Below the pieces are notes generated by a model. That model was not told where the DNA came from, did no database searches, and worked only from the letters and a program-made list of their open reading frames with translations. Below, one piece after another: positions 13,673 to 23,220 of a DNA stretch of 64,000 nucleotides. Within the stretch, counting starts at the first letter, position 1, and each line of letters begins with the position of its first letter. Source of the DNA: Verrucomicrobiota bacterium (GTDB lineage: Bacteria; Verrucomicrobiota; Lentisphaeria; JABSQK01; JAJFLO01); NCBI GenBank assembly GCA_021772635.1, contig JAJFLP010000109.1:7317-71316 (forward strand), in the 5' to 3' direction. A program made the position numbers and the translations under genes.

Positions 13673-14983
13673 ATGAGCAATAACGCGACGACCACAAGTA
13701 CCGATATCTTCGAGGACGCAATAAAGCGGCTTGATGATGCCTTCAGGTACGCGAATATAGACGAAGAAGCACTCGAATTACTTAAACATCCCAAAATAAT
13801 TATTCAAGTTGCGGTTCCCGTAAGGATGGATGACGGTACGCTTCGTGTTTTCGACGGATACCGCGTACGGCATGACGATACCCGCGGCCCGGGGAAGGGC
13901 GGTATAAGATTTCACCCCCAGGTCAATCTGAGCGAAGTCAAAGCGTTGGCGTTTTGGATGACGTGTAAGTGTGCCGTGGTCGGAATCCCTTACGGGGGGG
14001 CGAAAGGCGGAGTGATTGTTAATCCGAAGGAATTGTCGCGCCTCGAACTCGAGCGCTTGAGTCGCGGGTTCATTAGAGAGATCGCAGATTTTATCGGTCC
14101 CGAGAAAGACGTCCCCGCGCCCGATGTTTATACGAATGCAATGATAATGGGCTGGATGATGGACGAGTACTCGGACATCGTCCGGCAACGCACACCAGCC
14201 GTCATAACCGGTAAGCCAATACCGCTCGGCGGAAGTCTTGGCCGCGATGATGCGACTGGCCGAGGGGCCTATTATTGCCTGAAGGAACTTGAAATTAAAC
14301 GTGGCTGGAACCCTTCAGACATCCGGATTGCGGTTCAGGGATTCGGTAACGCCGGTCAACATGTTGCGCGTCTTCTTCATGATGACGGCTACAAAGTCGT
14401 AGCCGTCAGCGATTCGCGCGGCGGAATCTATAGCGAAGAAGGTTTTGACATACCCAGTTTAATTAAGATTAAGAATGAGAGCCTTCACCTCAAGGCCGTA
14501 TATTGTCACGAGTCAGTTTGCGAGGCGGTCAATGCTGAGTCAGTGACTAACGAAGCGCTATTGGAACTTGACGTGGATATATTGATACCAGCGGCGCTTG
14601 AGAATCAGATCACAGTTGAAAATGCCGATCGGATTAAGGCACCCGTTATCGTCGAAGTCGCGAACGGGCCGACGACGAGCGGTGCAGACCAGATATTAAA
14701 GTCGAAAAATACACTTATCATTCCGGACATCCTCGCAAATGCTGGTGGCGTGACTGTGAGTTATTTCGAGTGGGTCCAGAATAAGGCGGGATACTATTGG
14801 TCAGTCGAAGAAGTCCATTCGAAACTTCAAACGATCATGTCCCGGGAGTTCAATGCGGTGTACGATCTCATGGGGAAGCACGGAATCGACATGCGAACCG
14901 CGGGATACGCCCACGCACTTACCCGAATCGGGGCGGCTATAGCAGCCCAGGGAACCAAGAGTTACTTCACCGAAAAAAACTGA
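13673..14983 (+). CDS. gdhA: Glutamate dehydrogenase (Glu/Leu/Phe/Val dehydrogenase family)
   Basis: Catalytic GGAKGG motifs (KGGIRFHP; PYGGAKGGV) and NAD(P) Rossmann GFGNAGQ. SD GGAGC upstream. Confidence 0.88.
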
Positions 14984-15144
14984 TTCAAGGAGTGCATCCA
15001 GCGAAACCTTCGGCGGATTTTGTTCATAATCGTAATCCCTTTCCAAATTTCACCTCGAAGAACCAGAACGATTACGATTACGAGTAAGAGCAAGATTACG
15101 AATCGGAATGTTCGCTTATTTTAATCCTCGTTGTGGAACTATTT

Positions 15145-15816
15145 ATGGAGTTTTCCAACCCTGTCCAATACAATCGCCGATCGGCGATTTTCTTAATCCT
15201 CTGCATACTCATTTCCAGTGGGGTAACCGACACGCTAGCGGGCGAAGTATTAACTAAGCCGACCGAATGCTTAGTGTGTGGTCAGATGCATACCGCCGGG
15301 GATTTTCAGGTATCCTATAAGGGAATGGAGATCCCTCTGTGTTCAGAAGGATGCCAAACTCATTATGAGGAAGCGCGCGCGAACGGCGCTCTGGACCCCA
15401 TAACAGCGAAATTAGAACCGCGCTCCGCACTCTTTCAGGCTGACTCGAATTCAAATCCGGCGTTAAGACAACACTTTCTCTTTATCGCGTATTACGTCGT
15501 CATCGGTTTGATATTCGGTGGTGGTGCCGCCTACGTCGCCGTCCAGAAAGGCGCGGACGCATGGTCATGGTTTCTCGCTGGATTATGCCTGAATGTCCTC
15601 GGTTTTCTGCTAATTATGATGAAGCCGGCCGCGAAAGTACAATTCAGTTCGAAAGGGTTAAGTAAGGTGCCGGTTACACAAGATGAAAGTAGGTGTCCAA
15701 GCTGCGGGCATTCGAATCACCCCTCTGCAAAGAAGTGCAGCGAATGCGCAGTCGCTCTTACTCCGACCACAGTCTCGGAAGTTGAATCGTCCGGTATTCG
15801 AAAGGAACACGCATAA
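15145..15816 (+). CDS. Membrane protein with an N-terminal YHS/TRASH-type metal-binding motif, two TM helices and a C-terminal zinc ribbon
   Basis: C-x2-C-x19-C-x3-C (CLVCGQMHTAGDFQVSYKGMEIPLCSEGC) after a signal/anchor helix. Two hydrophobic helices, then CPSCGHSNHPSAKKCSEC. The track ORF starts at GTG 15133; ATG at 15145 is preferred. Confidence 0.5.
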   Translation: MEFSNPVQYNRRSAIFLILCILISSGVTDTLAGEVLTKPTECLVCGQMHTAGDFQVSYKGMEIPLCSEGCQTHYEEARANGALDPITAKLEPRSALFQADSNSNPALRQHFLFIAYYVVIGLIFGGGAAYVAVQKGADAWSWFLAGLCLNVLGFLLIMMKPAAKVQFSSKGLSKVPVTQDESRCPSCGHSNHPSAKKCSECAVALTPTTVSEVESSGIRKEHA

Positions 15817-18120
15817 ATGGGCATGGCGATCTTTGACAAGATAAAGAGTTCCGTTGATACAATCCTGGAACTCGGGAATATGCCGAGTCCGCGTCCGGAA
15901 TTGAAAGAGTACAACGAATCGAATGTGAAGAATATGTATATCATCGGCGATCTCGCAGGTGCGCCGGTGATAAAAATGGCGATGGAACAGGGATTTAATG
16001 TGATTCAGCACATTTCATCCTTACCCGACGCAAAGAGCAACTTAGCGGACGTTTACGACGTTATCATAATCGGTGCCGGCGCAAGCGGGTTAAACGCTGC
16101 ACTCGAAGCGACGGAAAGCGGTCTTTCTCATTTAGTCCTGGAAAAGGGGAAGATGGCAAACACGATCGAGAACTTCCCTGAGAAAAAGTGGGTTTATGCA
16201 GAGCCTGACACGCTCCCGCCTAAGGGAAAACTTTGGTTAGACGGAGCCCAGAAGGAAGATCTTATCCAGCGGTGGCAGCAGATCGTCGAAGATAACGGGC
16301 TTGACGTCCGTATTGACGAAGGAGTGGACGCTATATCGAAAAGCGCCAACGGCGATTTCGAAGTAAAGTCGGTAAAATCCACGTACAAAGCGAAGCGCGT
16401 AATTCTGGCAATCGGGCAGCGCGGGAATCCTCGTAAATTGGGGGTTACGGGCGAAGATCTTACATCCGTTTACCACCGGCTCTATTCCCCCCGGCATTAT
16501 CATGATGAGAATATTGTCGTCGTTGGCGGCGGCAATAGCGCAATCGAGGCCGCACTGACACTGTCCGAGCAGAACAAAGTGGTCCTATCGTATCGGGGGG
16601 ATCAGTTTTCGCGGATATTCAAGGATAACGAGCGAAAGCTAAATGAAGCGACCGAATCCGGTCGTATCCAAACGATTTTGAACTCTAACGTGAAAGAGTT
16701 TAAGGACGGCAGTTACACCCTGGAATCAACCGCGTCTGACGGAACCACTTCGAGCGAGGACCTCCCCTACGACCACGCGTTTGTTCTGGTCGGTGCCGAG
16801 CTACCGCTCAAGTTCCTGCGTTCCGCAGGTATTAGAATGGAGAATGAGTGGAACGGTAATTTCTGGTCTGCGATGGGCGTGACGGCGTTGTTGCTTGTTT
16901 TTCTTGCTCTATACGGACCGGATGCGAGAATGCAAAATCTCGCAGTATTGCCGAAATGGCTTGCGGGCATAGCTTCGATCGCGACGATCGGCGGGCTGGT
17001 AGTGATGGGCGTGAAAGGGAATCGTTACGCTTGGCTCGGATTTTCTTTTTTCGTTTGTTACGGGATTTACGGATGCAAGATGGGCTATGGCTCTGAATTC
17101 TGGCCATTTCGCGGATGGGGCTACGGATTGTTATCTTTCTTCGGCCGGCCGTGGACGTTTTGGTACACCGTCCTTTATACGGTTTTGATGACCGTATTCG
17201 GAATCAAGGCGATGAAGCGCTGGGGCATAGATAAGAAGGACAAATTCCAGATCGCCCGGTACATATCGCTAATCTCTTTCCAATGGTTCTTTTTCTTCAT
17301 TTTACCTGAGTTTCTCTTTCAGTGGGCGGTAGAATACCAGTGGATCGGCACCGGACTTTCCGCGGATCCTACTTTTACGGGGCAGCCATGGCGGGCTTAT
17401 GGAATTGTCTATGCCTGGCCGTTGTTCTTCTATACTTTTTTCTTCGATCCCCACACGATTTGGGTTATTTGGGGCGTGGTTCTCACATTTCTACTGATTC
17501 CGATTCTGGCTTTTTTCCATGGCAAACGGTACTGCTCCTGGATCTGTGGCTGCGGTGGGCTCGCGGAGACTTTGGGCGATCGCTGGCGGCATCTGGCACC
17601 CAAGGGCGTCAATGCCGTGAAGTGGGAGAAGATGAATAAGTATGTCTTGATAGCGGCCTTCGTGATCACCGGAGCTATGCTGTTGAAGGACGTATTCTCC
17701 TTTCTCCAGGAGCCCGCAAAAACGTCGGTAACAGTTTACAAGATTCTAGTCGATGTGTGGTTAGTCGGAATCCTTCCCGTAACATTATATCCGTTTCTCG
17801 GGGGTAAGGTATGGTGCCGGTATTGGTGTCCATTGGCGAAACTGATGGGGATTTACTCCAATGCGACTCGCGGGAAATTTAAAATCACCGCGAATGACAA
17901 ATGTATTGGCTGCTCCGAATGCACCAGGAATTGTCAGGTCGGTATCAACGTTATGGATTTCGCCCTGAAACAGAATGTGTTATCGAATCAAACAACCTCG
18001 TGTATCGGGTGCGGAATTTGCGTGTCAGCGTGTCCGATGGACGTTTTGAAGTTCGGCGATCCGGAGGAGAAAAGTTCGGAAGCCGCGGCATCGGCTTGCT
18101 GTGGTGGCGGGAATTGTTAG
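15817..18120 (+). CDS. Fusion protein: Cys-free FAD/NAD(P)H flavoprotein of the YpdA/Bdr (TrxR-like) type, apparently circularly permuted, joined to a NapH/MauN-type membrane polyferredoxin
   Basis: FAD GxGxxG (IIIGAGASGLNAALE, LVLEKG) and NAD(P) GxGxxA (VVVGGGNSAIEAALTL, LSYRG) motifs. The GD motif (NMYIIGDLAG) is N-terminal to them. There is no Cys in the first ~340 aa. The following region has 6 or more TM helices. It carries two R-x-[WY]-C-x3-C-[PG] motifs (RYCSWICGCGG, KVWCRYWCPLAKL). It also carries two CxxCxxCxxxCP 4Fe-4S motifs, and the protein ends with a Cys-rich tail. Confidence 0.6.
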   Translation: MGMAIFDKIKSSVDTILELGNMPSPRPELKEYNESNVKNMYIIGDLAGAPVIKMAMEQGFNVIQHISSLPDAKSNLADVYDVIIIGAGASGLNAALEATESGLSHLVLEKGKMANTIENFPEKKWVYAEPDTLPPKGKLWLDGAQKEDLIQRWQQIVEDNGLDVRIDEGVDAISKSANGDFEVKSVKSTYKAKRVILAIGQRGNPRKLGVTGEDLTSVYHRLYSPRHYHDENIVVVGGGNSAIEAALTLSEQNKVVLSYRGDQFSRIFKDNERKLNEATESGRIQTILNSNVKEFKDGSYTLESTASDGTTSSEDLPYDHAFVLVGAELPLKFLRSAGIRMENEWNGNFWSAMGVTALLLVFLALYGPDARMQNLAVLPKWLAGIASIATIGGLVVMGVKGNRYAWLGFSFFVCYGIYGCKMGYGSEFWPFRGWGYGLLSFFGRPWTFWYTVLYTVLMTVFGIKAMKRWGIDKKDKFQIARYISLISFQWFFFFILPEFLFQWAVEYQWIGTGLSADPTFTGQPWRAYGIVYAWPLFFYTFFFDPHTIWVIWGVVLTFLLIPILAFFHGKRYCSWICGCGGLAETLGDRWRHLAPKGVNAVKWEKMNKYVLIAAFVITGAMLLKDVFSFLQEPAKTSVTVYKILVDVWLVGILPVTLYPFLGGKVWCRYWCPLAKLMGIYSNATRGKFKITANDKCIGCSECTRNCQVGINVMDFALKQNVLSNQTTSCIGCGICVSACPMDVLKFGDPEEKSSEAAASACCGGGNC

Positions 18121-18149
18121 CGGAATTTTTGCACCCTATTCCGTTGCGA

Positions 18150-18545
18150 AACTCGCGACCTTGGGGTTATGAAATGCCGGTCGAAGCGCCCGTTGGAGTT
18201 CACGCTTCAGCGTGTGTTTTTGAGGAAATCCCATCGGTTGATCGATGACACATCCCGCGACCTTGGGGTTATGAAATGCCGGTCGAAGCGCCCGCTGGAG
18301 TTCACGCTTCAGCGTGTGTTTCCGAGGTAATCCCATCGATTGATCGATGACCCATCCCGCGACCTTGGGGTTATGAAATGCCGGTCGAAGCGCCCGTTGG
18401 AGTTCACGCTTCAGCGTGTGTTTTTCATATTCAAGTTTTTTTTAATGTAGACGCAAAGAGAAAAGACTCACACTAAAGTGCGAACTCCAACAGCGATATC
18501 GCCAATAGAAGCGCCCGTTGGAGTTCACGCTTTAGCGTGTGTTTT
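18150..18545. repeat. REP array upstream of the RAYT gene: ~2.5 tandem units of ~114 bp each ending in GCGCCCGTTGGAGTTCACGCTTCAGCGTGTGTTT, plus an inverted REP doublet (REPIN) at 18470-18545
   Basis: Direct reading: CGCGACCTTGGGGTTATGAAATGCCGGTCGAAGCGCCCGTTGGAGTTCACGCTTCAGCGTGTG occurs three times. The REPIN is ACTAAAGTGCGAACTCCAAC-N25-GTTGGAGTTCACGCTTTAGCGTG. Confidence 0.7.
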
Positions 18546-18578: not shown

Positions 18579-19184
18579 ATGTATAATTGGCGACAAATGT
18601 CTTCAAAACAACGTGAAGATGTGTTGCGGATGCGCAAAATCAACCGGGTGCCGTGGCATAGCCCGCCACACCGCGATGGCGACAGTACGCGCTTTCATAT
18701 AACGGCTGCTTGCTATCGACATCAGCCGGTTATCGGTTTTGATCGCGCTCGAATGTCGAATTTCGAATCGGTGCTGTTGGAAAAAGTTGACGCTTCTGCT
18801 GATAGGATCATGGCGTGGGTGGTACTACCGAACCACTATCATATCCTGATTCGAACCGATAATATCAAGAGTTTCTTGCATCAACTTGGCCGATTTCACG
18901 GGAGTATGTCATATAGCTGGAACGGCGAAGAGAACCGGCGTGGCCGTAAAGTATGGTGCAATGCGTTGGAGCATGCGATCAAGACTGATCGCCACTTTTG
19001 GGCGACCCTAAATTATATTCATCACAATCCCGTTCGGCACGGATATGTAGATAAATGGCAAGACTGGCCGTTCAGCAGCGCGCTGAAATATCTCGAGTCA
19101 GTCGGAAGGAAACGGGCAAAGGAGGTTTGGAAGGAATTTCCCATCCGTGAATACGGAAAGGATTGGGATCCACCGGGAATTTAG
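18579..19184 (+). CDS. REP-associated tyrosine transposase (RAYT; IS200/IS605-like HUH Y1 transposase)
   Basis: HUH motif LPNHYHILI and C-terminal helix FWATLNYIHHNPVRHGYV, as in TnpA_REP. Flanked on both sides by arrays of the same REP sequence. Confidence 0.8.
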   Translation: MYNWRQMSSKQREDVLRMRKINRVPWHSPPHRDGDSTRFHITAACYRHQPVIGFDRARMSNFESVLLEKVDASADRIMAWVVLPNHYHILIRTDNIKSFLHQLGRFHGSMSYSWNGEENRRGRKVWCNALEHAIKTDRHFWATLNYIHHNPVRHGYVDKWQDWPFSSALKYLESVGRKRAKEVWKEFPIREYGKDWDPPGI

Positions 19185-19204
19185 AATTCGCGTCCTGCTG
19201 CTAG

Positions 19205-19410
19205 TAGACGCAAAGAGAAAAGACTCACACTAAAGTGCGAACTCCAACAGCGATATCGCCAATAGAAGCGCCCGTTGGAGTTCACGCTTCAGCGTGTGTT
19301 TCCGAGGTAATCCCATCGATTGCCCGGTGGCACATCCCGCGACCTTGGGGTTCTGAAATGCCGGTCGAAGCGCCCGTTGGAGTTCACGCTTCAGCGTGTG
19401 TTTTCGAGGT
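19205..19410. repeat. REP array downstream of RAYT, comprising one REPIN doublet (19205-19295, matching 18456-18545) followed by two direct REP units
   Basis: AGACGCAAAGAGAAAAGACTCACACTAAAGTGCGAACTCCAACAGCGATATCGCCAATAGAAGCGCCCGTTGGAGTTCACGCTT is present on both sides of the RAYT gene in direct orientation. Confidence 0.7.
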
Positions 19411-19469
19411 ATACTGCTTGCAGCATAATTACGAAACCACGAGATTTAACCAGAACCTTTAGGAAAACT

Positions 19470-20246
19470 ATGAGAAAGTCGATATTCACTGCATTTAGCC
19501 TGGCGGCTATTTCTATACCGATTCTAACATCATCACTCTTCGCCTTCAATCAATCACACGCCCTGTTTGATGAGGTCCTTTCGACACACGTAAAGGACGG
19601 GAAAGTTGATTATAAGGCATTGACGGCGGACGCGGCTAAATTCCAGCAATATCTGGAGGCACTCGCCAGTGTAACGTCGGAGGAACTGGATTCCTGGAGT
19701 AAGGAACAAAAACTGGCATACTGGATCAATGCGTACAATGCGTATACTATCAAGGCAATCGTTGACGCCTATCCGGTTAAAAGCATTAAGAAAATCCCGG
19801 GAGTCTGGAAGAGAACGAAGCGGAAAGCGGGGGGCATAGAGATTACCTTAGACGACATAGAACACAAGGTGCTACGGGCAGAACTTAAGGAACCACGGAT
19901 TCATTTCGCGATCAATTGCGCGTCAATCGGTTGTCCCAGACTGAGCGATCGAGCGTATAAAGCAGAAGGGTTATACGAGCAACTGGATGCCAGCGCGAAA
20001 GCGATGTTCAAGAACCGGGAGCAGTTCCGAATTAACTATCAAAAGATGGAACTGCACCTGTCAAAAATATTAAAATGGTTCGGCGAAGATTTTAACGGGT
20101 ATTCCGGCGTAACGAATTACAGGAAAAATAACGGTATTATCTCGTTTATCGTTAACTACCTTCCGAAAGCCAAACAAAATTTCATCACTTCCAACGACCT
20201 AAAGATAAAATGGTTGGATTACGACTGGAATCTAAATGACTTATAA
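19470..20246 (+). CDS. DUF547-domain secreted/periplasmic protein
   Basis: Signal peptide MRKSIFTAFSLAAISIPILTSSLFA. DUF547 core YWINAYNAYTIKAIVDAYP...HFAINCASIGCPRL. SD AGGAAA upstream. The track ORF start at 19320 is REP read-through. Confidence 0.6.
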   Translation: MRKSIFTAFSLAAISIPILTSSLFAFNQSHALFDEVLSTHVKDGKVDYKALTADAAKFQQYLEALASVTSEELDSWSKEQKLAYWINAYNAYTIKAIVDAYPVKSIKKIPGVWKRTKRKAGGIEITLDDIEHKVLRAELKEPRIHFAINCASIGCPRLSDRAYKAEGLYEQLDASAKAMFKNREQFRINYQKMELHLSKILKWFGEDFNGYSGVTNYRKNNGIISFIVNYLPKAKQNFITSNDLKIKWLDYDWNLNDL

Positions 20247-20270: not shown

Positions 20271-20621
20271 ATGAAACACTTAGAAAGTTTAAATGATCTT
20301 GATGATGCGATTGCCCAGTCGTCAGAAAAGCCGGTATTCTTATTCAAACACAGCACGCGCTGTCCCGTCAGCGTGGCAGCCGACCAGGAGTATCTAACCT
20401 TTGTTGACGATCACGCCGACAATGCCGACGTAATTTTTACCCATTTGGATCTGTTGCAGCATCGCGACGTGTCTGACGCCATAACCGAAAGATTATCGGT
20501 GCAACACCAATCGCCGCAGGCGATACTGGTTATCGACGGCGAAGCGAAGTGGCATAAATCTCACGGGAATATCAACCAGGCGTCGTTAACTGCAGCGTTA
20601 ACGGCGGATGCCGACGCATAA
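20271..20621 (+). CDS. ytxJ: YtxJ-family (bacilliredoxin BrxC-like) thioredoxin-fold monothiol protein
   Basis: 116 aa with KPVFLFKHSTRCPVS, matching the YtxJ T-C-P-x-S active-site motif. Thioredoxin-like secondary pattern. AAGGAG SD. Confidence 0.6.
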   Translation: MKHLESLNDLDDAIAQSSEKPVFLFKHSTRCPVSVAADQEYLTFVDDHADNADVIFTHLDLLQHRDVSDAITERLSVQHQSPQAILVIDGEAKWHKSHGNINQASLTAALTADADA

Positions 20622-20792: not shown

Positions 20793-21038
20793 ATGAAAAC
20801 AACAATCGATATTGCTAACAATATTATGGTCCGATCAAAGAAGCTTTCTCGGCGTCAGAAGGTCACCTTTAAGGCCTTGGTGGAAGAGGGCCTTGAGCTG
20901 GTCTTAGAAAAACGCACTGCGAAGGGAAAATACAAGGCGCAGCCAGTAACGTTTGCGGGAGCGGGTCTGAGCGGCGAGTATAAGAAAGCTTCATGGGAGA
21001 AAATCAGAGAATTGGCCTATGGAGATCGGGGCGGATGA
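20793..21038 (+). CDS. Type II antitoxin, VapB/RHH-like (MKTTIDIxD-type)
   Basis: 81 aa with N-terminus MKTTIDIANNIMVRSKKLSRRQ. Stop overlaps the next ATG in an ATGA 4-bp overlap. Confidence 0.6.
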   Translation: MKTTIDIANNIMVRSKKLSRRQKVTFKALVEEGLELVLEKRTAKGKYKAQPVTFAGAGLSGEYKKASWEKIRELAYGDRGG

Positions 21039-21475
21039 TCGCGGTGGATACGAATATACTCGTATATGCTCACCGGGAAGACTCAGAGTGGCACAAGGAG
21101 GCTTTGTCGGCATTGATTGAATTGTCTGAGGGAACCCAGCGTTGGGCGATTCCATGGCCATGTATTCATGAGTTCGTTGCGATCACTACGCATCCAGCGA
21201 TTTACTCACCACCGAGTCCTCTTGAGACTGCGCTAGCGGCGATCGATAATTGGCTGAATTCCCCCACCTGCCATCCGATTGCCGAAGGCCCCGATTACTT
21301 CTCATTATTGACGGATTTATCGAAATCGGCGAAGACAAAAGGGCCGATGATCCATGATATTCGGATCGCGGCGATTTGCTTGCACAATGGTGTCAAGGAA
21401 CTTTGGACTGCCGACCGGGACTTTTCGCGCTGCAAAGAGCTGAAGACGCTAAATCCTCTTATTGCCGCTATTTGA
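21035..21475 (+). CDS. PIN-domain toxin VapC
   Basis: Starts MIAVDTNILVYA (first acidic PIN residue); later catalytic acidic residues in DIRIAAICL and TADRDF. Track ORF start 20993 lies upstream of the coupled ATG. Confidence 0.8.
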   Translation: MIAVDTNILVYAHREDSEWHKEALSALIELSEGTQRWAIPWPCIHEFVAITTHPAIYSPPSPLETALAAIDNWLNSPTCHPIAEGPDYFSLLTDLSKSAKTKGPMIHDIRIAAICLHNGVKELWTADRDFSRCKELKTLNPLIAAI

Positions 21476-22978
21476 TCCATTCACGTATGCGGCCCATGGT
21501 TCGAAACTAACCGGAATCTTGAATCGAGGAAGGACTTCTTCTAATGCCTGGCGGATCTCATGCTCGGTAAGGGTTGCAGTTTTATTCACTTCAACGAAGG
21601 CTCTCGGTCGGAATCCGAACTCGCTATTGACCGCCGGTACTACCGCTGCCTTTTCGATTCCATCGATGGCCAGTAGCACTGTCTCTATTTCTTCCGGATA
21701 AATATTCTCGCCGCCGGATATGAACATTCTATCCTTGCGCCCGAGAATATGCAGATACTCCTCGTCATCGAGGTACCCAAGGTCACCGGTGTGATACCAC
21801 CCATCTTCGCTAACTACCGGTTCAACTTCGCCGTCGACAACGTAGCCCACGCACAATGTCTGTCCGTTTACCAGTATCTCACCGTCGTCAGCGATTTTGA
21901 TAGTCCGATACGTCAATATCTTACCCGCTGTTGATAGCCGCTCGACCGTATCGCCGATCTCCGTCGACGTAATTTGAGAACACATTTCGGTCGATCCGTA
22001 CGTTGTTGTTATCGGCAGTTTAATCGAGTGCGCGTCTGCAATCAGATTCCCGGGTATTATATCTCCACCGAGTAAAATGGTCTTGATACCGGGCAGGGTT
22101 TCTCCGCTGGCGCCGTGTGCCAGTAACCTTCTTAGTTGCGTCGGAACTAGAGAAAGCCGGGAGATCTTGAATTCGATCAAAGTTGAAAGACAGATTGGTG
22201 AATTTTCCGCGATCACACAGGTTGCGCCAGCCAGTATGCAGCGGTAAAGGATCGCTAAGCCGCCGATATGATAGATTGGTAGCGAAAGCAGCCATCGATC
22301 ACCTGGCACTAACCGACTGTTTTGGTTCGATCCTAACGCGCTGTGCCAATGGTTTCCGAAACTGTGTTGTACGGCTTTAGGAGCGCCAGTCGAACCTGAC
22401 GTAAGGAGTATAGTTGCCAGCTGATCGCTATCAATGGCAATCTCGTCCTCAGCCTGCTCGGTGTGCTCTGCAGCATCATTCTCGTCTACAATCGAATCGA
22501 TTTGAGTGACGGGACATGGTAAGTTGGAGTCGTTGTGCCGACTGGCATGATTTCGGCTTGTTATACTGCAGGCAGTATGTTTTTCGGAAGACTTTAAAGT
22601 CTCACCTAAGGGATTTCGAACGATAATTCGAAAACTCGAAGACGATGAGTATACAAGCAACCCGCATTTCAGTCGACTTGAGACATCAATGAGAACGGAG
22701 GTTGGTTCTCGTACGCTTATCGGGCATGCAATCGCGCCCAATCGAATGATTGATAGGAGAGCGATACATGCATCCGCTGAATTCGGCAGGTAAACAGCCA
22801 CTCTATCTCTGATTCGCACGCCGCACGCCGCTAGCTTTCGCGACGACGACGACACGACGGCGTCTAGCTCCCTATAACTGTATGAACGTCCCCCCGCTAC
22901 TAACGCGGTTGCTGATGGCTGACGTATTGCATTATGTCGTAGTGGACAGAGGATATTGTTTTCAAGAGACTTAAGCAT
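21449..22978 (-). CDS. AMP-binding adenylate-forming ligase (MenE/acyl-CoA synthetase-like); N-terminus uncertain
   Basis: TSGSTGAPKAV (A3), YGSTE (A5), YHTGDLGYLDDEEYLHILGRKDRMFISGGENIYPEEIE (A7-A8). The first ~69 aa of the track ORF are a translation of repeat family A, so start is taken at MLKSLENN. An in-frame TGCAAGCAG-family repeat lies at 22565-22590. Confidence 0.65.
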   Translation of the reverse strand: MLKSLENNILCPLRHNAIRQPSATALVAGGRSYSYRELDAVVSSSSRKLAACGVRIRDRVAVYLPNSADACIALLSIIRLGAIACPISVREPTSVLIDVSSRLKCGLLVYSSSSSFRIIVRNPLGETLKSSEKHTACSITSRNHASRHNDSNLPCPVTQIDSIVDENDAAEHTEQAEDEIAIDSDQLATILLTSGSTGAPKAVQHSFGNHWHSALGSNQNSRLVPGDRWLLSLPIYHIGGLAILYRCILAGATCVIAENSPICLSTLIEFKISRLSLVPTQLRRLLAHGASGETLPGIKTILLGGDIIPGNLIADAHSIKLPITTTYGSTEMCSQITSTEIGDTVERLSTAGKILTYRTIKIADDGEILVNGQTLCVGYVVDGEVEPVVSEDGWYHTGDLGYLDDEEYLHILGRKDRMFISGGENIYPEEIETVLLAIDGIEKAAVVPAVNSEFGFRPRAFVEVNKTATLTEHEIRQALEEVLPRFKIPVSFEPWAAYVNGSNSGNKRI

Positions 22979-23220
22979 GAGCGATGAATAATAGTTATTT
23001 GTTCGTACTGCTTCCAGTATAGTATACCGTACTCCATCGGGTTTATCGCCTCTTGAACGCATGGACCGCGAAAGATATAGTAGCGCCAAAATAATCGCGT
23101 TGGGTTCACCGTTTAATCCCACCAGTGGGTTTAATTCCCCGTTCTGCTGTCCAGCACGAACCCGCCTGTGCGGGAACCCCTTCAACCTCTAAATCTTGAG
23201 TAATTTGACTGAGATTTTCA

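What the first reader, a model, noticed from the sequence alone, without database searches (positions are those of the whole stretch)
15145..18120. YHS-motif membrane protein plus a circularly permuted, Cys-free YpdA/Bdr-like flavoprotein fused to a NapH-type membrane polyferredoxin
The N-terminal ~340 aa of the 767-aa protein carry the FAD and NAD(P)H Rossmann motifs of the YpdA/Bdr (TrxR-like) family. The match is closest to the Cys-free YpdA-type bacillithiol-disulfide reductases: IIIGAGASGLNAALE...LVLEKG vs IIIGGGPCGLSAAIE...LIIEKG, IVVVGGGNSAIEAALTL...LSYRG vs VVIIGGKNSAIDAAMEL...VLYRG, and not a single Cys. The terminal GD motif (NMYIIGDLAGAP) lies before the first GxGxxG rather than at the C-terminus, which implies a circular permutation. 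This soluble-type flavoprotein is fused directly to a polytopic domain. That domain has two R-x-W/Y-C-x3-C-P/G loops and two CxxCxxCxxxCP clusters, as in NapH/MauN/CcoG-type quinol-linked ferredoxins. Immediately upstream and contiguous is a membrane protein with a YHS/TRASH metal motif (C-x2-C-x19-C-x3-C) and a Zn ribbon. Such a pathway would carry electrons from NAD(P)H through FAD and membrane Fe-S clusters, possibly to or from a low-molecular-weight thiol or metal. I do not recognise it as a described system.
Basis: partly seen in the sequence, partly recalled or inferred. Interest (0 to 1): 0.72.

Follow-up and report, generated by a model that had tools for sequence, protein, structure and literature searches.

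The report
Permuted NADPH flavoprotein fused to membrane ferredoxin
Two back-to-back genes encode a widespread but undescribed membrane redox machine, in which an NAD(P)H-using flavoprotein with its sequence order rearranged is fused to an iron-sulfur membrane protein; this suggests what feeds electrons into a class of membrane proteins whose donor has been unknown.

Summary
Window 15145-15816 (+) encodes a 223-aa membrane protein with a TRASH/YHS-like Cys motif, a TM hairpin and an invariant C4 zinc ribbon. Its TAA stop abuts the ATG of a 767-aa ORF (15817-18120).

The 767-aa protein has three parts:
- A Cys-free FAD/NAD(P)H domain. Its closest relative by sequence and predicted fold is YpdA/Bdr.
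- Eight TM helices, ending in a NapH-type core with two cytoplasmic CX3C(P) loops.
- A 2x[4Fe-4S] domain.

The circular permutation is real at sequence level. The body matches Pfam Pyr_redox_2 positions 1-252/291. The N-terminal residues ~25-70 match positions 255-291, the GD segment.

The fusion is not a frameshift. More than 1100 homologues of ~750-780 aa exist, from 338 species genomes in over ten phyla. Relatives at 30-58% identity keep the same layout. The partner gene lies directly upstream in 79 of 83 informative loci.

Neither half reaches the curated cut-off of YpdA or NapH, and I found no paper describing the family.

Most likely mechanism: NAD(P)H → FAD → [4Fe-4S]x2 → Cys loops → a membrane or extracytoplasmic acceptor. 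The acceptor is unresolved. The bacillithiol link is weak (ytxJ only here). DUF547, TIGR04282/04283 and pentose-phosphate genes recur nearby.

The parts
15145..15816 (+). Partner gene: a 223-aa small membrane subunit. A GTG at 15133 is an alternative start that would give 227 aa.
   Evidence: ORF. The database protein P0271 starts at the ATG. A homologue lies on the same strand directly upstream of the fusion in 79 of 85 loci, with a median gap of 20 bp.
15184..15240 (+). N-terminal hydrophobic segment of the partner, either a signal peptide or a membrane anchor
   Evidence: Hydropathy. AF2 predicts helix 11-25 in the 223-aa numbering. Homologues have signal-peptide-like N-termini.
15262..15432 (+). 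TRASH/YHS-like domain of the partner: C-x2-C-x20-C-x3-C followed by the conserved PRSALF motif
   Evidence: Pfam YHS E 0.0085, below threshold. Homologue P0281 carries a precomputed PF04945 hit. The four-Cys motif is kept in 17 of 24 aligned relatives, including all of the closest ones. Acidobacteria-type homologues keep only the first CxxC/S. AF2 pLDDT is 85-96 with a beta-hairpin plus helix. Foldseek gave no significant match.
15457..15621 (+). Two hydrophobic helices of the partner (TM hairpin)
   Evidence: AF2 helices 105-134 and 139-159. The topology is not resolved by charge counts.
15688..15753 (+). C-terminal C4 zinc ribbon of the partner (CPSCG...C..C)
   Evidence: All four Cys are invariant in 77 homologues. 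Pfam DZR and Zn_ribbon hits are sub-threshold. AF2 pLDDT is 94.
15817..18120 (+). Fusion gene, 767 aa: permuted flavodomain, 8 TM helices and a 2x[4Fe-4S] domain
   Evidence: 1148 homologues; the best 120 are 748-788 aa; 338 species genomes.
15892..16026 (+). Relocated FAD-binding GD segment (residues 26-70): beta strand, GD motif, then a helix
   Evidence: Invariant residues are R26, P27, G44, D45, G48, A49, P50, K53, A55, M56 and G59. A profile of this region hits the GD site of solved flavoproteins. It matches Pfam PF07992 positions 255-291 of 291. AF2 predicts strand 40-42 and helix 52-68; block-mean pLDDT is 91 for residues 31-40 and 92 for 61-70, but 69-73 for residues 41-60, which hold the GD motif. 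The segment is kept in relatives at 30-58% identity.
16054..16851 (+). Body of the YpdA/TrxR-fold flavodomain (residues 80-345): FAD GxGxxG at 16072-16089 and NAD(P)H GGGNSAIEAA at 16525-16554
   Evidence: Pyr_redox_3 E 1.7e-42. TIGR04018 161 bits covering profile 1-264 of 316. Best PDB sequence hit is YpdA 7a7b, E 1.1e-28. Foldseek top hits are 7a7b, 7apr and 7a76, E about 3e-18.
16861..17799 (+). Membrane domain: eight predicted TM helices (residues 349-661). The first five belong to no known family and are very rich in aromatic residues.
   Evidence: Hydropathy, AF2 helices and charge bias of the loops. No family matches residues 346-557.
17524..17586 (+). First cytoplasmic Cys loop, KRYCSWICGCGGLAETLGDRW (C573, C577, C579)
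   Evidence: Invariant in 35 homologues and conserved across the wider superfamily. Pfam Fer4_5 PF12801. The loop carries a net charge of +4.0.
17806..17841 (+). Second cytoplasmic Cys loop, KVWCRYWCPLAK (C667, C671)
   Evidence: The loop carries a net charge of +5.7.
17893..18054 (+). 2x[4Fe-4S] ferredoxin domain (CIGCSECTRNC and CIGCGICVSACP)
   Evidence: Pfam Fer4_21, Fer4_9 and Fer4_7. The NapH/MauN model extends through it. PDB ferredoxin-type hits.
19470..20246 (+). DUF547 gene with a signal peptide; a possible third member of the unit, separated here by an inserted REP/RAYT element
   Evidence: PF04784 E 2.5e-28. DUF547 lies directly downstream of the fusion in L005, L006 and L023. It lies within ~6 kb in L009, L029, L033 and L081, and in the cluster of a distant relative, L090.

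Best explanation
The two genes encode a conserved two-subunit membrane reductase that carries its own NAD(P)H input module.

Shown by sequence, profiles and models:
- The 767-aa protein has a cytoplasmic FAD + NAD(P)H domain of the YpdA/TrxR fold, with no redox cysteines.
- Its FAD-binding GD strand-helix segment has moved from the C-terminal to the N-terminal end (a circular permutation). This leaves the end of the flavodomain free to run straight into TM helix 1.
- Eight TM helices follow. The last ones are NapH-like and place two conserved Cys loops (C-x3-C-G-C and C-x3-C-P) on the cytoplasmic face.
- A cytoplasmic 2x[4Fe-4S] domain ends the chain.

Inferred mechanism:
- NAD(P)H reduces FAD by hydride transfer. 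NADPH is probably preferred, because of the conserved SYR-x5-R after the second Rossmann strand.
- FAD then passes single electrons to the two [4Fe-4S] clusters, as TrxR-type ferredoxin-NADP+ reductases do with ferredoxin.
- The clusters pass the electrons to the Cys-loop site at the membrane surface. This site may be a third cluster or a substrate/metal site.
- From there the electrons go to an acceptor in or beyond the membrane.

The 223-aa partner is translationally coupled. It has a TRASH/YHS-like domain, a TM hairpin and a zinc ribbon. It is inferred to be a structural or acceptor-docking subunit.

My favoured acceptor is an extracytoplasmic or membrane-bound partner process. This follows the precedent of all characterised NapH-like proteins. 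Candidates are the secreted DUF547 protein and the TIGR04282/04283-type cluster that recur nearby. The identity of the acceptor is not shown.
For: Domain content and order.

YpdA is the closest relative by sequence (7a7b, E 1.1e-28) and by predicted fold. TrxR-type FNRs come next (3ab1 and 2zbw).

Permutation. AF2 predicts the expected strand and helix in the N-terminal segment, at pLDDT about 70-92.

Topology:
- There are eight long helices between the flavodomain and the Fe-S domain, an even number.
- The Cys loops are strongly positive, at +4.0 and +5.7.
- All cofactor sites are therefore cytoplasmic, as in NapH.

Conservation:
- 1148 homologues.
- 338 species genomes across Verrucomicrobia, Lentisphaerae, Acidobacteriota, Planctomycetota, KSB1, Calditrichia, Bacteroidota and other phyla.
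- 159 cluster representatives at E <= 1e-30. The 9 long distant relatives scanned against Pfam all carry the flavodomain, and most long relatives show the N-terminal GD segment, at 30-58% identity; some relatives lack the flavodomain.
- C573, C577, C579, C667, C671 and both ferredoxin motifs are conserved throughout.

Partner: present in 79 of 85 loci, always on the same strand and upstream, with the stop codon abutting the start codon.

Literature precedent:
- NapH-like proteins act as modular electron conduits serving extracytoplasmic enzymes, and other such conduits are fused to NAD-binding domains (PMC8238504).
- CcoG has two [4Fe-4S] clusters and an unknown physiological donor (PMC7558416).

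Neighbours consistent with an NADPH demand and an extracytoplasmic pathway:
- 6PGD, G6PD, PGI and glucokinase.
- Secreted DUF547 in 9 loci.
- TIGR04283/04282 glycosyltransferases in L068, L090 and L092.
- A radical-SAM/ArsM fusion in three Scalindua loci.
Against: - Nothing was tested biochemically. Cofactor binding is inferred from motifs alone.
- No conserved His or Cys lies in the TM helices or periplasmic loops, so there is no obvious cofactor path across the membrane.
- The AF2 model of the membrane and Fe-S part has low confidence (pLDDT below 50 for most of residues 521-767).
- The partner's topology is ambiguous.
- About 70 of 85 loci have none of the suggestive neighbours within about 6 kb.
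- One close relative, L001, has only a 53-aa remnant of the partner next to the fusion. An intact copy lies elsewhere on the same contig.
- The distant relative looked at in Leptospira ellisii has no partner upstream.
Confidence: 0.55

Rival explanations
1. A new type of NAD(P)H:menaquinone oxidoreductase. The electrons end in the quinone pool, which is reduced at the NapH-like membrane core. The partner is only a stabilising subunit.
For: The C-terminal membrane core is homologous to NapH, annotated as a quinol dehydrogenase subunit. All cofactor sites face the cytoplasm, and no transmembrane cofactor ligands are conserved. The membrane part is very rich in aromatic residues, as a lipid or quinone pocket might be. 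menE lies 3 kb away in the window.
Against: The match to NapH is far below the family cut-off (72 bits against 213). A quinone site has not been mapped in any NapH-like protein. A simple quinone reductase would not need a tightly coupled partner with a signal-peptide-led domain. The menE proximity is not conserved.
Confidence: 0.2
2. A self-sufficient metal reductase of the CcoG type. The Cys loops bind Cu(II) or another metal or metalloid, which is reduced with NAD(P)H-derived electrons. The TRASH/YHS-like partner handles the metal.
For: CcoG, a protein of this membrane-ferredoxin class by my own recollection, reduces Cu(II) with two [4Fe-4S] clusters and two Cu sites, and its donor is unknown (PMC7558416); no CcoG model appeared among the hits listed. 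An extra invariant Cys lies in the first loop (C-x3-C-G-C). The partner in this window's clade has a complete four-Cys TRASH motif. Arsenite methyltransferase fusions lie near the family in Scalindua.
Against: The second Cys pair of the partner's motif is lost in most of the family, while the fusion stays about 60% identical. No copper ATPase, chaperone or cbb3 assembly gene appears among the recurrent neighbours in 85 loci. No CcoG model appeared among the NCBIfam hits listed.
Confidence: 0.12
3. A membrane-anchored disulfide reductase for bacillithiol or another low-molecular-weight thiol. The flavodomain would act like YpdA, with the Fe-S and membrane part as an alternative electron source or sensor.
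For: YpdA is the best sequence and fold match. The aromatic residue that stacks on FAD is kept (Phe51 in YpdA, the invariant Tyr127 here). Cys14 of YpdA is not conserved outside Firmicutes either. A bona fide ytxJ/brxC (TIGR04019, 111 bits against a cut-off of 77) lies 2.1 kb downstream in the window.
Against: The score is less than half the YpdA cut-off. The gating Tyr128 is replaced by an invariant Arg202 within the family-specific GQRGNPR motif. ytxJ is found next to the unit only in this window, out of 86 loci. No bsh gene appeared among 10 other window ORFs tested. A soluble reaction gives no reason for an obligatory membrane polyferredoxin.
Confidence: 0.08

Closest known systems
YpdA/Bdr bacillithiol-disulfide reductase (TIGR04018; PDB 7A7B, 7APR, 7A76)
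   Same: It shares the two-dinucleotide-binding-domain fold and both Rossmann motifs. It has no redox-active Cys pair. An aromatic residue stacks on FAD. It is the best sequence and fold match.
   Different: YpdA is a soluble tetramer of about 326 aa with the GD segment at its C-terminal end. Here that segment is N-terminal, and the domain is fused to a membrane Fe-S protein. The score is 161 bits against a cut-off of 340. Tyr128 is replaced by Arg and Cys14 by Ser.
NapH/MauN/NosR/CcoG-type membrane polyferredoxins (TIGR02163, PF12801)
   Same: Both have TM helices followed by two cytoplasmic C-x3-C-P-type loops and a C-terminal 2x[4Fe-4S] domain. Members of this class serve as electron conduits for membrane or periplasmic processes (PMC8238504, PMC7558416).
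   Different: The score is 72 bits against a cut-off of 213. There are five extra TM helices that belong to no known family. The first loop reads C-x3-C-G-C. No nap, nos, mau or cco genes lie nearby. There is no FMN-binding or Ig-like domain. Uniquely, an NAD(P)H flavoprotein is fused on.
TrxR-type ferredoxin-NADP+ reductases (for example PDB 3AB1, 2ZBW, 3LZW)
   Same: These are Cys-free TrxR-fold flavoproteins that exchange electrons between NADP(H) and Fe-S proteins. They are the best functional analogy for the FAD-to-[4Fe-4S] step, and they rank second in sequence and fold searches.
   Different: They are soluble homodimers with normal sequence order and a C-terminal sub-domain that covers the flavin, and they act on free ferredoxin or flavodoxin. 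Sequence similarity is weaker (E about 4e-12).
Transmembrane electron-transfer proteins fused to NAD-binding domains (MsrQ-like, PepSY-like and NQR/RNF-like systems; Meheust et al. 2021, PMC8238504)
   Same: The design logic is the same: a cytosolic NAD(P)H-binding module is fused to a membrane electron conduit that serves extracytosolic chemistry.
   Different: Those systems use an FNR-type PF00175 domain with haem or flavinylated carriers. Here the input is a permuted TrxR-fold domain and the carrier is Fe-S. No ApbE or FMN-binding gene is conserved nearby.
YHS/TRASH metal-binding domains (PF04945; TRASH of ZMYM5, PDB 2DAS)
   Same: The C-x2-C...C-x3-C pattern with a beta-hairpin plus helix is present in the partner of this clade.
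   Different: The score is below the Pfam threshold. The ligand set is incomplete in most homologues. The domain sits in a small membrane protein together with a zinc ribbon. The structural matches are not significant.

Membership tests
YpdA/Bdr (TIGR04018) | Whole-protein score above NCBIfam's curated cut-off (339.9 bits) | tested here: not met
   The score is 161.1 bits for the full protein, 164.1 for residues 1-345, and 166.6 for a manually re-permuted sequence.
YpdA/Bdr (TIGR04018) | tDBDF fold with an FAD GxGxxG motif and an NADPH GxGxxA/G motif | tested here: met
   GAGASG lies at 86-91 and GGGNSA at 237-242. Pyr_redox_3 E 1.7e-42. Foldseek's top hits are YpdA structures.
YpdA/Bdr (TIGR04018) | Canonical segment order, with the GD strand-helix at the C-terminal end (profile positions about 265-316) | tested here: not met
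   The profile match stops at 264 of 316 and TM helix 1 starts at residue 349. The GD segment lies at residues 26-70.
YpdA/Bdr (TIGR04018) | Residues highlighted in the crystal structures: Cys14, Phe51 and Tyr128 (S. aureus numbering) | tested here: not met
   Using the alignment, Cys14 corresponds to Ser90 (Ala or Ser across the family), Phe51 to the invariant Tyr127, and Tyr128 to the invariant Arg202. Only the stacking aromatic is retained.
YpdA/Bdr (TIGR04018) | NADPH-dependent reduction of bacillithiol disulfide | not testable with these tools
   This needs an enzyme assay.
NapH/MauN (TIGR02163; NapH PRK09477) | Whole-protein score above the curated cut-off (213 and 234 bits) | tested here: not met
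   The scores are 70-72 bits and 55-59 bits, covering profile positions 67-253 of 255.
NapH/MauN (TIGR02163; NapH PRK09477) | Two C-x3-C-P loops on the cytoplasmic side plus two C-terminal CxxCxxCxxxCP motifs | tested here: met
   C573-x3-C577-G-C579 (a variant with G in place of P) and C667-x3-C671-P. Ferredoxin motifs start at 696 and 729. The loops are positively charged. Two PF12801 stretches are found.
NapH/MauN (TIGR02163; NapH PRK09477) | Four-TM protein encoded alongside napG/napA or mau genes | tested here: not met
   Eight helices are predicted. No nap or mau gene appears among the recurrent neighbours in 85 loci.
CcoG/FixG cupric reductase | Match to the family model, a C-terminal Ig-like periplasmic domain, and ccoGHIS context | tested here: not met
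   No CcoG model appears among the NCBIfam hits listed. The protein ends right after the ferredoxin domain. No cco genes are nearby.
TrxR-type ferredoxin-NADP+ reductase | Soluble homodimer with normal order and a C-terminal flavin-covering sub-domain; closest relatives are FNRs | tested here: not met
   FNRs are the second tier of matches (3ab1 at E 4.3e-12 against YpdA at 1.1e-28). The C-terminal sub-domain is absent.
YHS/TRASH domain (PF04945), for the partner | Score above Pfam's gathering threshold (30.3 bits) and a conserved Cys ligand set | tested here: inconclusive
   The window protein scores 16.5 bits, E 0.0085. Seven other homologues give no YHS hit. P0281 has a precomputed PF04945 hit. 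All four Cys are kept in 17 of 24 aligned relatives, including all of the closest ones, but only the first pair is kept family-wide. Foldseek E values exceed 1.

The most novel reading that the evidence does not exclude
The family is the missing electron-input solution for NapH/NosR/CcoG-type membrane ferredoxins. It would be a self-contained, NADPH-driven reductase whose permuted flavodomain evolved so that it could be fused in front of the membrane domain. It would power an extracytoplasmic or membrane-bound pathway built from the secreted DUF547 protein and the TIGR04282/TIGR04283/radical-SAM/ArsM-type (arsenosugar-like) genes. This would make it a new redox arm of organo-arsenical or related glycolipid metabolism across many uncultured phyla.
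Probability: 0.15. Interest if true: 0.8.

Novelty: new variant of a known kind. Interest (0 to 1): 0.62.

Why it matters
The physiological electron donors of NapH-like membrane ferredoxins are unknown or only guessed. The literature I read says this of CcoG and of many 'NapH-like' systems (PMC7558416, PMC8238504); I believe it also applies to NosR. A natural fusion of such a membrane module to an NAD(P)H flavoprotein is a Rosetta-stone hint that a TrxR/FNR-type flavoprotein can feed these modules. It also yields a single polypeptide on which that idea can be tested directly.

The fusion also appears to be an undescribed circular permutation of the two-dinucleotide-binding-domain fold. It shows how a domain whose two chain ends both lie in the FAD domain can be rewired to allow a C-terminal fusion.

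The family is large. One subfamily alone covers 338 species genomes, and there are 159 cluster representatives at E <= 1e-30. The best 80 genome matches are all metagenome-assembled genomes from soil, sediment and water, spanning Acidobacteriota, Verrucomicrobia, Planctomycetota including anammox Scalindua, KSB1 and Calditrichia. A conserved redox enzyme there is currently annotated only as 'NAD(P)-binding domain-containing protein'.

Tried and rejected
1. I re-permuted the sequence by hand (residues 79-345 followed by 1-78) and scored it against TIGR04018 and the PDB. The gain was only 164.1 to 166.6 bits, and the alignment did not extend through the GD segment. The linker is about 20 residues longer than in YpdA, so this test was uninformative. 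I replaced it with profile searches of the isolated N-terminal segment.

2. Frameshift or gene-pair artefact. Rejected: full-length homologues of constant length and an invariant junction.

3. I searched for a third universally conserved neighbour by all-against-all clustering of the ORFs of 85 loci. Nothing besides the partner exceeds about 10% of loci. ORFs lying in the gaps between partner and fusion are unrelated insertions.

4. Conserved ytxJ linkage. Rejected: it occurs only in the window.

5. bsh genes in the window. None was found among the 10 ORFs scanned; only menE, efflux, helicase and regulator genes turned up.

6. An RNA element upstream or downstream. I found only spurious miRNA-model hits on the REP hairpins.

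7. Foldseek of the partner model. Nothing was significant.

I redid it with database homologues.

9. The afdb50 library was unavailable.

10. Literature searches on the YpdA-NapH fusion, on permutation of TrxR-fold proteins, on DUF547 and on ArsS clusters found no description of this family.

11. G587-D588 in the first Cys loop as an alternative GD motif. Rejected: it sits inside the region matched by the NapH-type model (residues 558-746), it is conserved across the superfamily, and the profile evidence places the GD segment at the N-terminus.

Full report
1. WHAT IS IN THE SEQUENCE

Two ORFs lie on the + strand at the stated coordinates.

The first runs from 15133 (GTG) or 15145 (ATG) to 15816. 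The identical database protein P0271 starts at the ATG and is 223 aa.

The second runs from 15817 to 18120 and is 767 aa. The first gene's TAA stop (15814-15816) is followed at once by the second gene's ATG, with AAAGGAA about 10 nt upstream. This is the layout of translationally coupled genes.

A glutamate dehydrogenase gene lies upstream (13673-14983).

Downstream come the following:
- arrays of a 102-nt-period palindromic repeat flanking an IS200/RAYT-like gene (18579-19184);
- a DUF547 gene (probable start 19470, end 20246);
- a ytxJ/brxC gene 25 bp after DUF547 (20271-20621; TIGR04019, 111 bits against a cut-off of 77).

2. THE 767-AA PROTEIN

- There is no Cys in residues 1-413.
- GAGASG lies at 86-91 and GGGNSAIEAA at 237-246.
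- MYIIGDLAGAP lies at 40-50.
- KRYCSWICGCG is at 570-580 and VWCRYWCP at 665-672.
- CxxCxxCxxxC motifs start at 696 and 729.

Family matches:
- Pfam places Pyr_redox_3 on residues 83-342 (E 1.7e-42), 4Fe-4S dicluster domains on 693-746, and two Fer4_5 stretches.
- For the N-half, NCBIfam's best family is YpdA (TIGR04018). It scores 161 bits at E 2.8e-47, on residues 81-344, covering profile positions 1-264 of 316.
- For the C-half the best family is NapH/MauN (TIGR02163). It scores 70 bits at E 1.6e-19, on residues 558-746.
- Both scores are far below the curated cut-offs of 340 and 213 bits.
- Residues 346-557 match no family.

Solved structures:
- YpdA/Bdr of S. aureus (7a7b, E 1.1e-28) and of B. 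cereus (7a76) come first.
- Thioredoxin reductases and TrxR-type ferredoxin-NADP+ reductases follow.

Predicted structure:
- An AlphaFold2 model built from 35 homologues has a confident flavodomain, with most 10-residue blocks at pLDDT 80-93.
- The C-terminal membrane and Fe-S part is poorly modelled, with pLDDT below 50 for most of 521-767.
- Foldseek of the model again ranks YpdA first (E about 3e-18, about 276 aligned columns). FNRs 3ab1 and 2zbw and the TrxRs follow.

3. THE CIRCULAR PERMUTATION

In this fold the FAD domain is completed by a segment that follows the NAD(P)H domain. That segment is a strand ending in the 'GD' motif, followed by a long helix.

Here every profile stops just before it:
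- Pyr_redox_2 stops at position 252 of 291.
- TIGR04018 stops at 264 of 316.
- The TrxR model stops at 251 of 300.
- TM helix 1 begins at residue 349, so there is no room for a C-terminal GD segment.

The missing piece is at the N-terminus:
- HMMER already gave a sub-threshold second alignment, KEYNESNVKNMYIIGDLAG (30-48) against KETYETNIENCYIAGVIAA of YpdA (277-295).
- A profile built from the first about 79 residues of 24 family members was searched against all PDB sequences. Its best hits fall on the GD-motif segments of dihydrolipoamide dehydrogenases (1lvl residues 288-330, E 1.9e-4; three more below 0.005).
- Weaker hits are thioredoxin-glutathione reductase, CoA-disulfide reductase, glutathione reductase, monodehydroascorbate reductase and TrxR.
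- By my count from the molecule names, 46 of the 54 listed hits are members of this flavoprotein superfamily. They are matched at that site in the five printed alignments and at consistent chain coordinates in the rest.
- Isolated N-terminal pieces of 6 of 8 members match Pfam Pyr_redox_2 at profile positions 255-291 of 291 (E 1e-3 to 0.2). Across all 24 members, 14 match that family.

The body therefore covers positions 1-252 and the N-terminal piece covers 255-291. The two halves fit like a jigsaw.

The segment is the most conserved part of the N-terminus. R26, P27, G44, D45, G48, A49, P50, K53, A55, M56 and G59 are invariant. AF2 predicts strand 40-42 and helix 52-68, with 10-residue block means of about 70-92.

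A hand-made re-permuted sequence raised the YpdA score only from 164.1 to 166.6 bits, because the linker is longer than in YpdA. I regard that test as uninformative.

What is not shown is a coordinate-level superposition. The tools do not return coordinates.

4. THE FUSION IS NOT AN ARTEFACT AND NOT RARE

- The word-indexed protein search found 1148 homologues. The best 120 are all 748-788 aa at 60-78% identity. Their names are 'NAD(P)-binding domain-containing protein', 'thioredoxin reductase/polyferredoxin' or, wrongly, 'NosR/NirI regulator'.
- In 35 aligned homologues the junction (E342, E344, W345, G347), both Cys loops and both ferredoxin motifs are invariant. The window protein's C-terminal tail ACCGGGNC is not conserved.
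- A scan of one genome per species found the protein in 338 genomes. The best 80 are all metagenome-assembled genomes. They come from Verrucomicrobia (closest, 75% identity), Lentisphaerales, Elusimicrobia, many Acidobacteriota/Terriglobia/Bryobacterales, Planctomycetota including Scalindua, KSB1, Calditrichia, Cytophagia/Chitinophagales, Dadabacteria, Myxococcota, Spirochaetia and Eisenbacteria.
- An exhaustive HMMER search with the membrane half (residues 346-767) gave 2483 cluster representatives at E <= 1e-3 and 159 at E <= 1e-30.
- Nine long distant relatives were scanned against Pfam. All nine again carry a Pyr_redox_3/2 domain; in eight its match ends at profile position about 251-256 of 291, in one at 190.
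- Most long relatives carry an N-terminal 'hhhhG[DE]xxGxPhhK' segment before the first GxGxxG. A subset has a different N-terminus and lacks the flavodomain.
- The 38 relatives selected for carrying that segment share only 30-58% identity with the window protein.
- One such relative is WP_100746172.1 of the cultured Leptospira ellisii.

The permuted-flavodomain-plus-membrane-ferredoxin layout therefore defines a large, old superfamily. A few relatives lack the flavodomain.

5. TOPOLOGY

AF2 and hydropathy give eight long helices between residues 349 and 661. This is an even number, so the N-terminal flavodomain and the C-terminal Fe-S domain lie on the same side of the membrane. The flavodomain has no signal peptide and uses NAD(P)H. 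That side is therefore the cytoplasm.

The loops that carry the Cys motifs are strongly positive (net +4.0 and +5.7 over 35 sequences). The predicted outer loops are near neutral.

Two predicted outer loops (422-445 and 507-528) are highly conserved and rich in aromatic residues. No His or Cys is conserved in the TM helices or outer loops, so no haem-type or thiol-type path across the membrane is evident.

6. THE PARTNER

An iterated HMM built from the window protein finds a homologue in 79 of 85 loci. It is always on the same strand and always upstream, with a median gap of 20 bp. Two of the six loci without a hit have too little upstream DNA to judge.

One of the remaining four, L001, is the closest relative. 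It keeps a 53-aa remnant of the zinc-ribbon end. An intact copy (P0273) lies 6.9 Mb away on the same contig.

Features conserved across 77 distinct homologues:
- a signal-peptide-like N-terminus;
- a small domain with the pattern C-x-V-[CS]-G ... G-R-R-x-P ... F ... PRGALF;
- two hydrophobic helices;
- an invariant C4 zinc ribbon followed by SEV.

The full C-x2-C-x20-C-x3-C motif, with H after it, is kept in 17 of 24 aligned relatives, including all of the closest ones. One of these has a precomputed YHS hit. The window protein's own YHS hit is sub-threshold, and seven more distant homologues give none.

AF2 models the small domain (a beta-hairpin plus helices) and the ribbon at pLDDT 85-96. 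Foldseek finds nothing significant. The best-ranked hits, all at E about 1.5-3.4, include RanBP-type zinc ribbons. They also include toluene and phenol hydroxylase subunits and the ZMYM5 TRASH domain.

Which side of the membrane each soluble part faces is unresolved. The N-terminus looks like a signal peptide. The segment after the second helix is positive, at +2.4. One variant (L002) has a single TM helix followed by RKRRRE.

7. CONTEXT BEYOND THE PAIR

No third gene is conserved in more than about 10% of loci. Several minority associations recur in unrelated lineages.

(a) DUF547, a protein with a signal peptide:
- It lies directly downstream of the fusion in L005 (Verrucomicrobia), L006 (Lentisphaerales) and L023 (Planctomycetota).
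- It lies downstream in the window after the REP/RAYT insertion.
- It lies within about 6 kb in L009, L029, L033 and L081.
- It lies in the same one-strand cluster as a distant relative in L090.

(b) Glycosyltransferases named 'arsenosugar biosynthesis' by NCBIfam, TIGR04283 and TIGR04282:
- TIGR04283 scores 219.8 bits (cut-off 182) in L092. It is borderline or sub-threshold in L090 and L068, where it is fused to an MptA_B-type membrane domain.
- TIGR04282 scores 155.8 bits (cut-off 134) in L090.
- These genes sit beside two distant relatives and one close one.

(c) Other genes of that neighbourhood type:
- In three Scalindua loci, a radical-SAM/SPASM plus arsenite-methyltransferase fusion lies just upstream of the partner.
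- In L009, a DedA-like protein, a PRK06370 flavoprotein and DUF547 follow the fusion.

(d) NADPH-generating sugar-phosphate genes:
- PGI, 6PGD and G6PD lie beside the unlinked partner copy in L087.
- 6PGD lies beside the relative in L094/L095.
- Glucokinase and/or PGI lie within about 6 kb of the fusion in 14 mostly Acidobacterial loci.

ytxJ is adjacent only in this window. None of ten further window ORFs is a bsh gene. menE lies at 21449-23185.

8. HOW IT MOST LIKELY WORKS

Shown:
- a cytoplasmic FAD/NAD(P)H domain without redox cysteines;
- two ferredoxin-type cluster motifs;
- two conserved Cys loops at the cytoplasmic membrane face;
- an obligate small partner.

Inferred:
- NAD(P)H reduces FAD. 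NADPH is likely preferred, given the conserved SYR-x5-R after the second Rossmann strand, where YpdA has LYRG and TrxR has HRR.
- FAD hands single electrons to the [4Fe-4S] pair. This is the chemistry of TrxR-type ferredoxin-NADP+ reductases, the second-closest relatives.
- The clusters reduce the Cys-loop site.
- The electrons leave to an acceptor in or beyond the membrane.

Choice of acceptor:
- The literature I read describes NapH-like proteins as serving extracytoplasmic or membrane processes, and other conduit families are known fused to NAD-binding domains (PMC8238504). CcoG's physiological donor is explicitly unknown (PMC7558416). By my own recollection CcoG belongs to the same membrane-ferredoxin class; no CcoG model appeared among the hits listed.
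- I therefore favour electron supply to an extracytoplasmic or membrane-bound process over plain quinone reduction.
- The lack of any visible trans-membrane cofactor path keeps quinone reduction a serious rival (0.2).
- A CcoG-like metal reductase (0.12) and a YpdA-like thiol-disulfide reductase (0.08) are not excluded.

Against the thiol-disulfide idea:
- the sub-cut-off score;
- the invariant Arg202 in place of YpdA's gating Tyr128;
- the non-conserved ytxJ linkage.

In its favour:
- the retained stacking aromatic (Phe51 in YpdA, Tyr127 here);
- the fact that Cys14 is not universal even among YpdAs.

9. COMPARISON WITH WHAT IS KNOWN, AND NOVELTY

The protein works like a TrxR-type FNR welded to a NapH/CcoG-type membrane ferredoxin. 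It is a member of neither YpdA nor NapH by their curated thresholds or their defining layouts (see the membership table).

Six literature searches and three papers read turned up no description of this fusion, of a permuted TrxR-fold flavoprotein, or of the partner family. Database names are generic.

I rate it a new variant of a known kind, made of known modules and known chemistry. The arrangement is undescribed and widespread, and the acceptor is open.

10. VERDICT

The functional hints (thiol or metal) are unproven, and the thiol one is weak.

Interest is 0.62. The finding would surprise flavoenzyme and respiratory-chain specialists moderately. It also makes the question of what donates electrons to NapH-like membrane ferredoxins experimentally approachable.

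Noticed in passing
window 18074-18545 and 19204-19411, flanking 18579-19184: Arrays of a palindromic repeat with a 102-nt period (core GGAGTTCACGCTTCAGCGTGT, 7 copies; a 154-nt unit, 4 copies) flank a 201-aa ORF with a weak IS200/Y1-transposase match. This looks like a REP/RAYT-type element inserted between the fusion gene and DUF547. Relatives L005 and L006 have DUF547 directly after the fusion.
   Followed up: partly
window 19470-20246 and 20271-20621: A DUF547 gene with a signal peptide and a conserved INCAS-GCP motif is followed 25 bp later by a bona fide ytxJ/brxC monothiol bacilliredoxin gene. DUF547 recurs near the family in 9 loci across several phyla. ytxJ does not recur.
   Followed up: yes
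L090:134-6917; L092:292-9003; L068:2786-8286: TIGR04283 and TIGR04282 ('arsenosugar biosynthesis') glycosyltransferases sit in the same clusters as two distant relatives and one close relative of the fusion. They are accompanied by MptA_B-type membrane glycosyltransferase parts in all three clusters, and by DUF1499, YdjY and DUF547 in L090.
   Followed up: partly
L029:1981-4515, L020:2629-5211, L033:2702-5284: In three Scalindua (anammox) loci, an 844-860-aa fusion of a radical-SAM/SPASM domain with an arsenite-methyltransferase domain lies just upstream of the partner-fusion pair. DUF547 lies further upstream in L029 and L033.
   Followed up: partly
L087:1113-6687; L094:4237-9139; Acidobacterial loci such as L030, L055, L059, L061, L064, L065: NADPH-generating or glucose-6-phosphate genes (PGI, 6PGD, G6PD, glucokinase) lie next to the partner or the fusion in several lineages. 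This hints at co-regulation with NADPH supply.
   Followed up: partly
L001:7808-7969 and L087:6001-6687 (same 8.78-Mb contig): In the closest relative, the partner gene next to the fusion has decayed to a 53-aa zinc-ribbon remnant that overlaps the end of the GDH gene. An intact partner copy sits 6.9 Mb away beside the pentose-phosphate genes.
   Followed up: yes
window 18097-18117 (residues 761-767): The window protein ends in a Cys-rich tail (ACCGGGNC). It is absent from the 34 homologues whose sequences I read.
   Followed up: partly
L048:5484-5876 and L067:5247-5832: In two loci, a small membrane protein with the motif MT.DMRFVG.F.II...C.G lies between the partner and the fusion.
   Followed up: no
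L009:8298-11421: Directly after the fusion come a DedA/TVP38-like membrane protein, a PRK06370-type flavoprotein disulfide oxidoreductase (773 bits) and DUF547. This suggests that DUF547 associates with pyridine-nucleotide flavoproteins more generally.
   Followed up: no
window 20793-21475: Two small overlapping ORFs (81 aa and 160 aa; the second contains DTNILVYAHRED) look like a VapB/VapC-type toxin-antitoxin pair. This is judged by eye only and was not tested with any tool.
   Followed up: no
window 21449-23185 (-): An o-succinylbenzoate-CoA ligase gene (menE; TIGR01923, 374 bits against a cut-off of 330) shows that the organism makes menaquinone.
   Followed up: no
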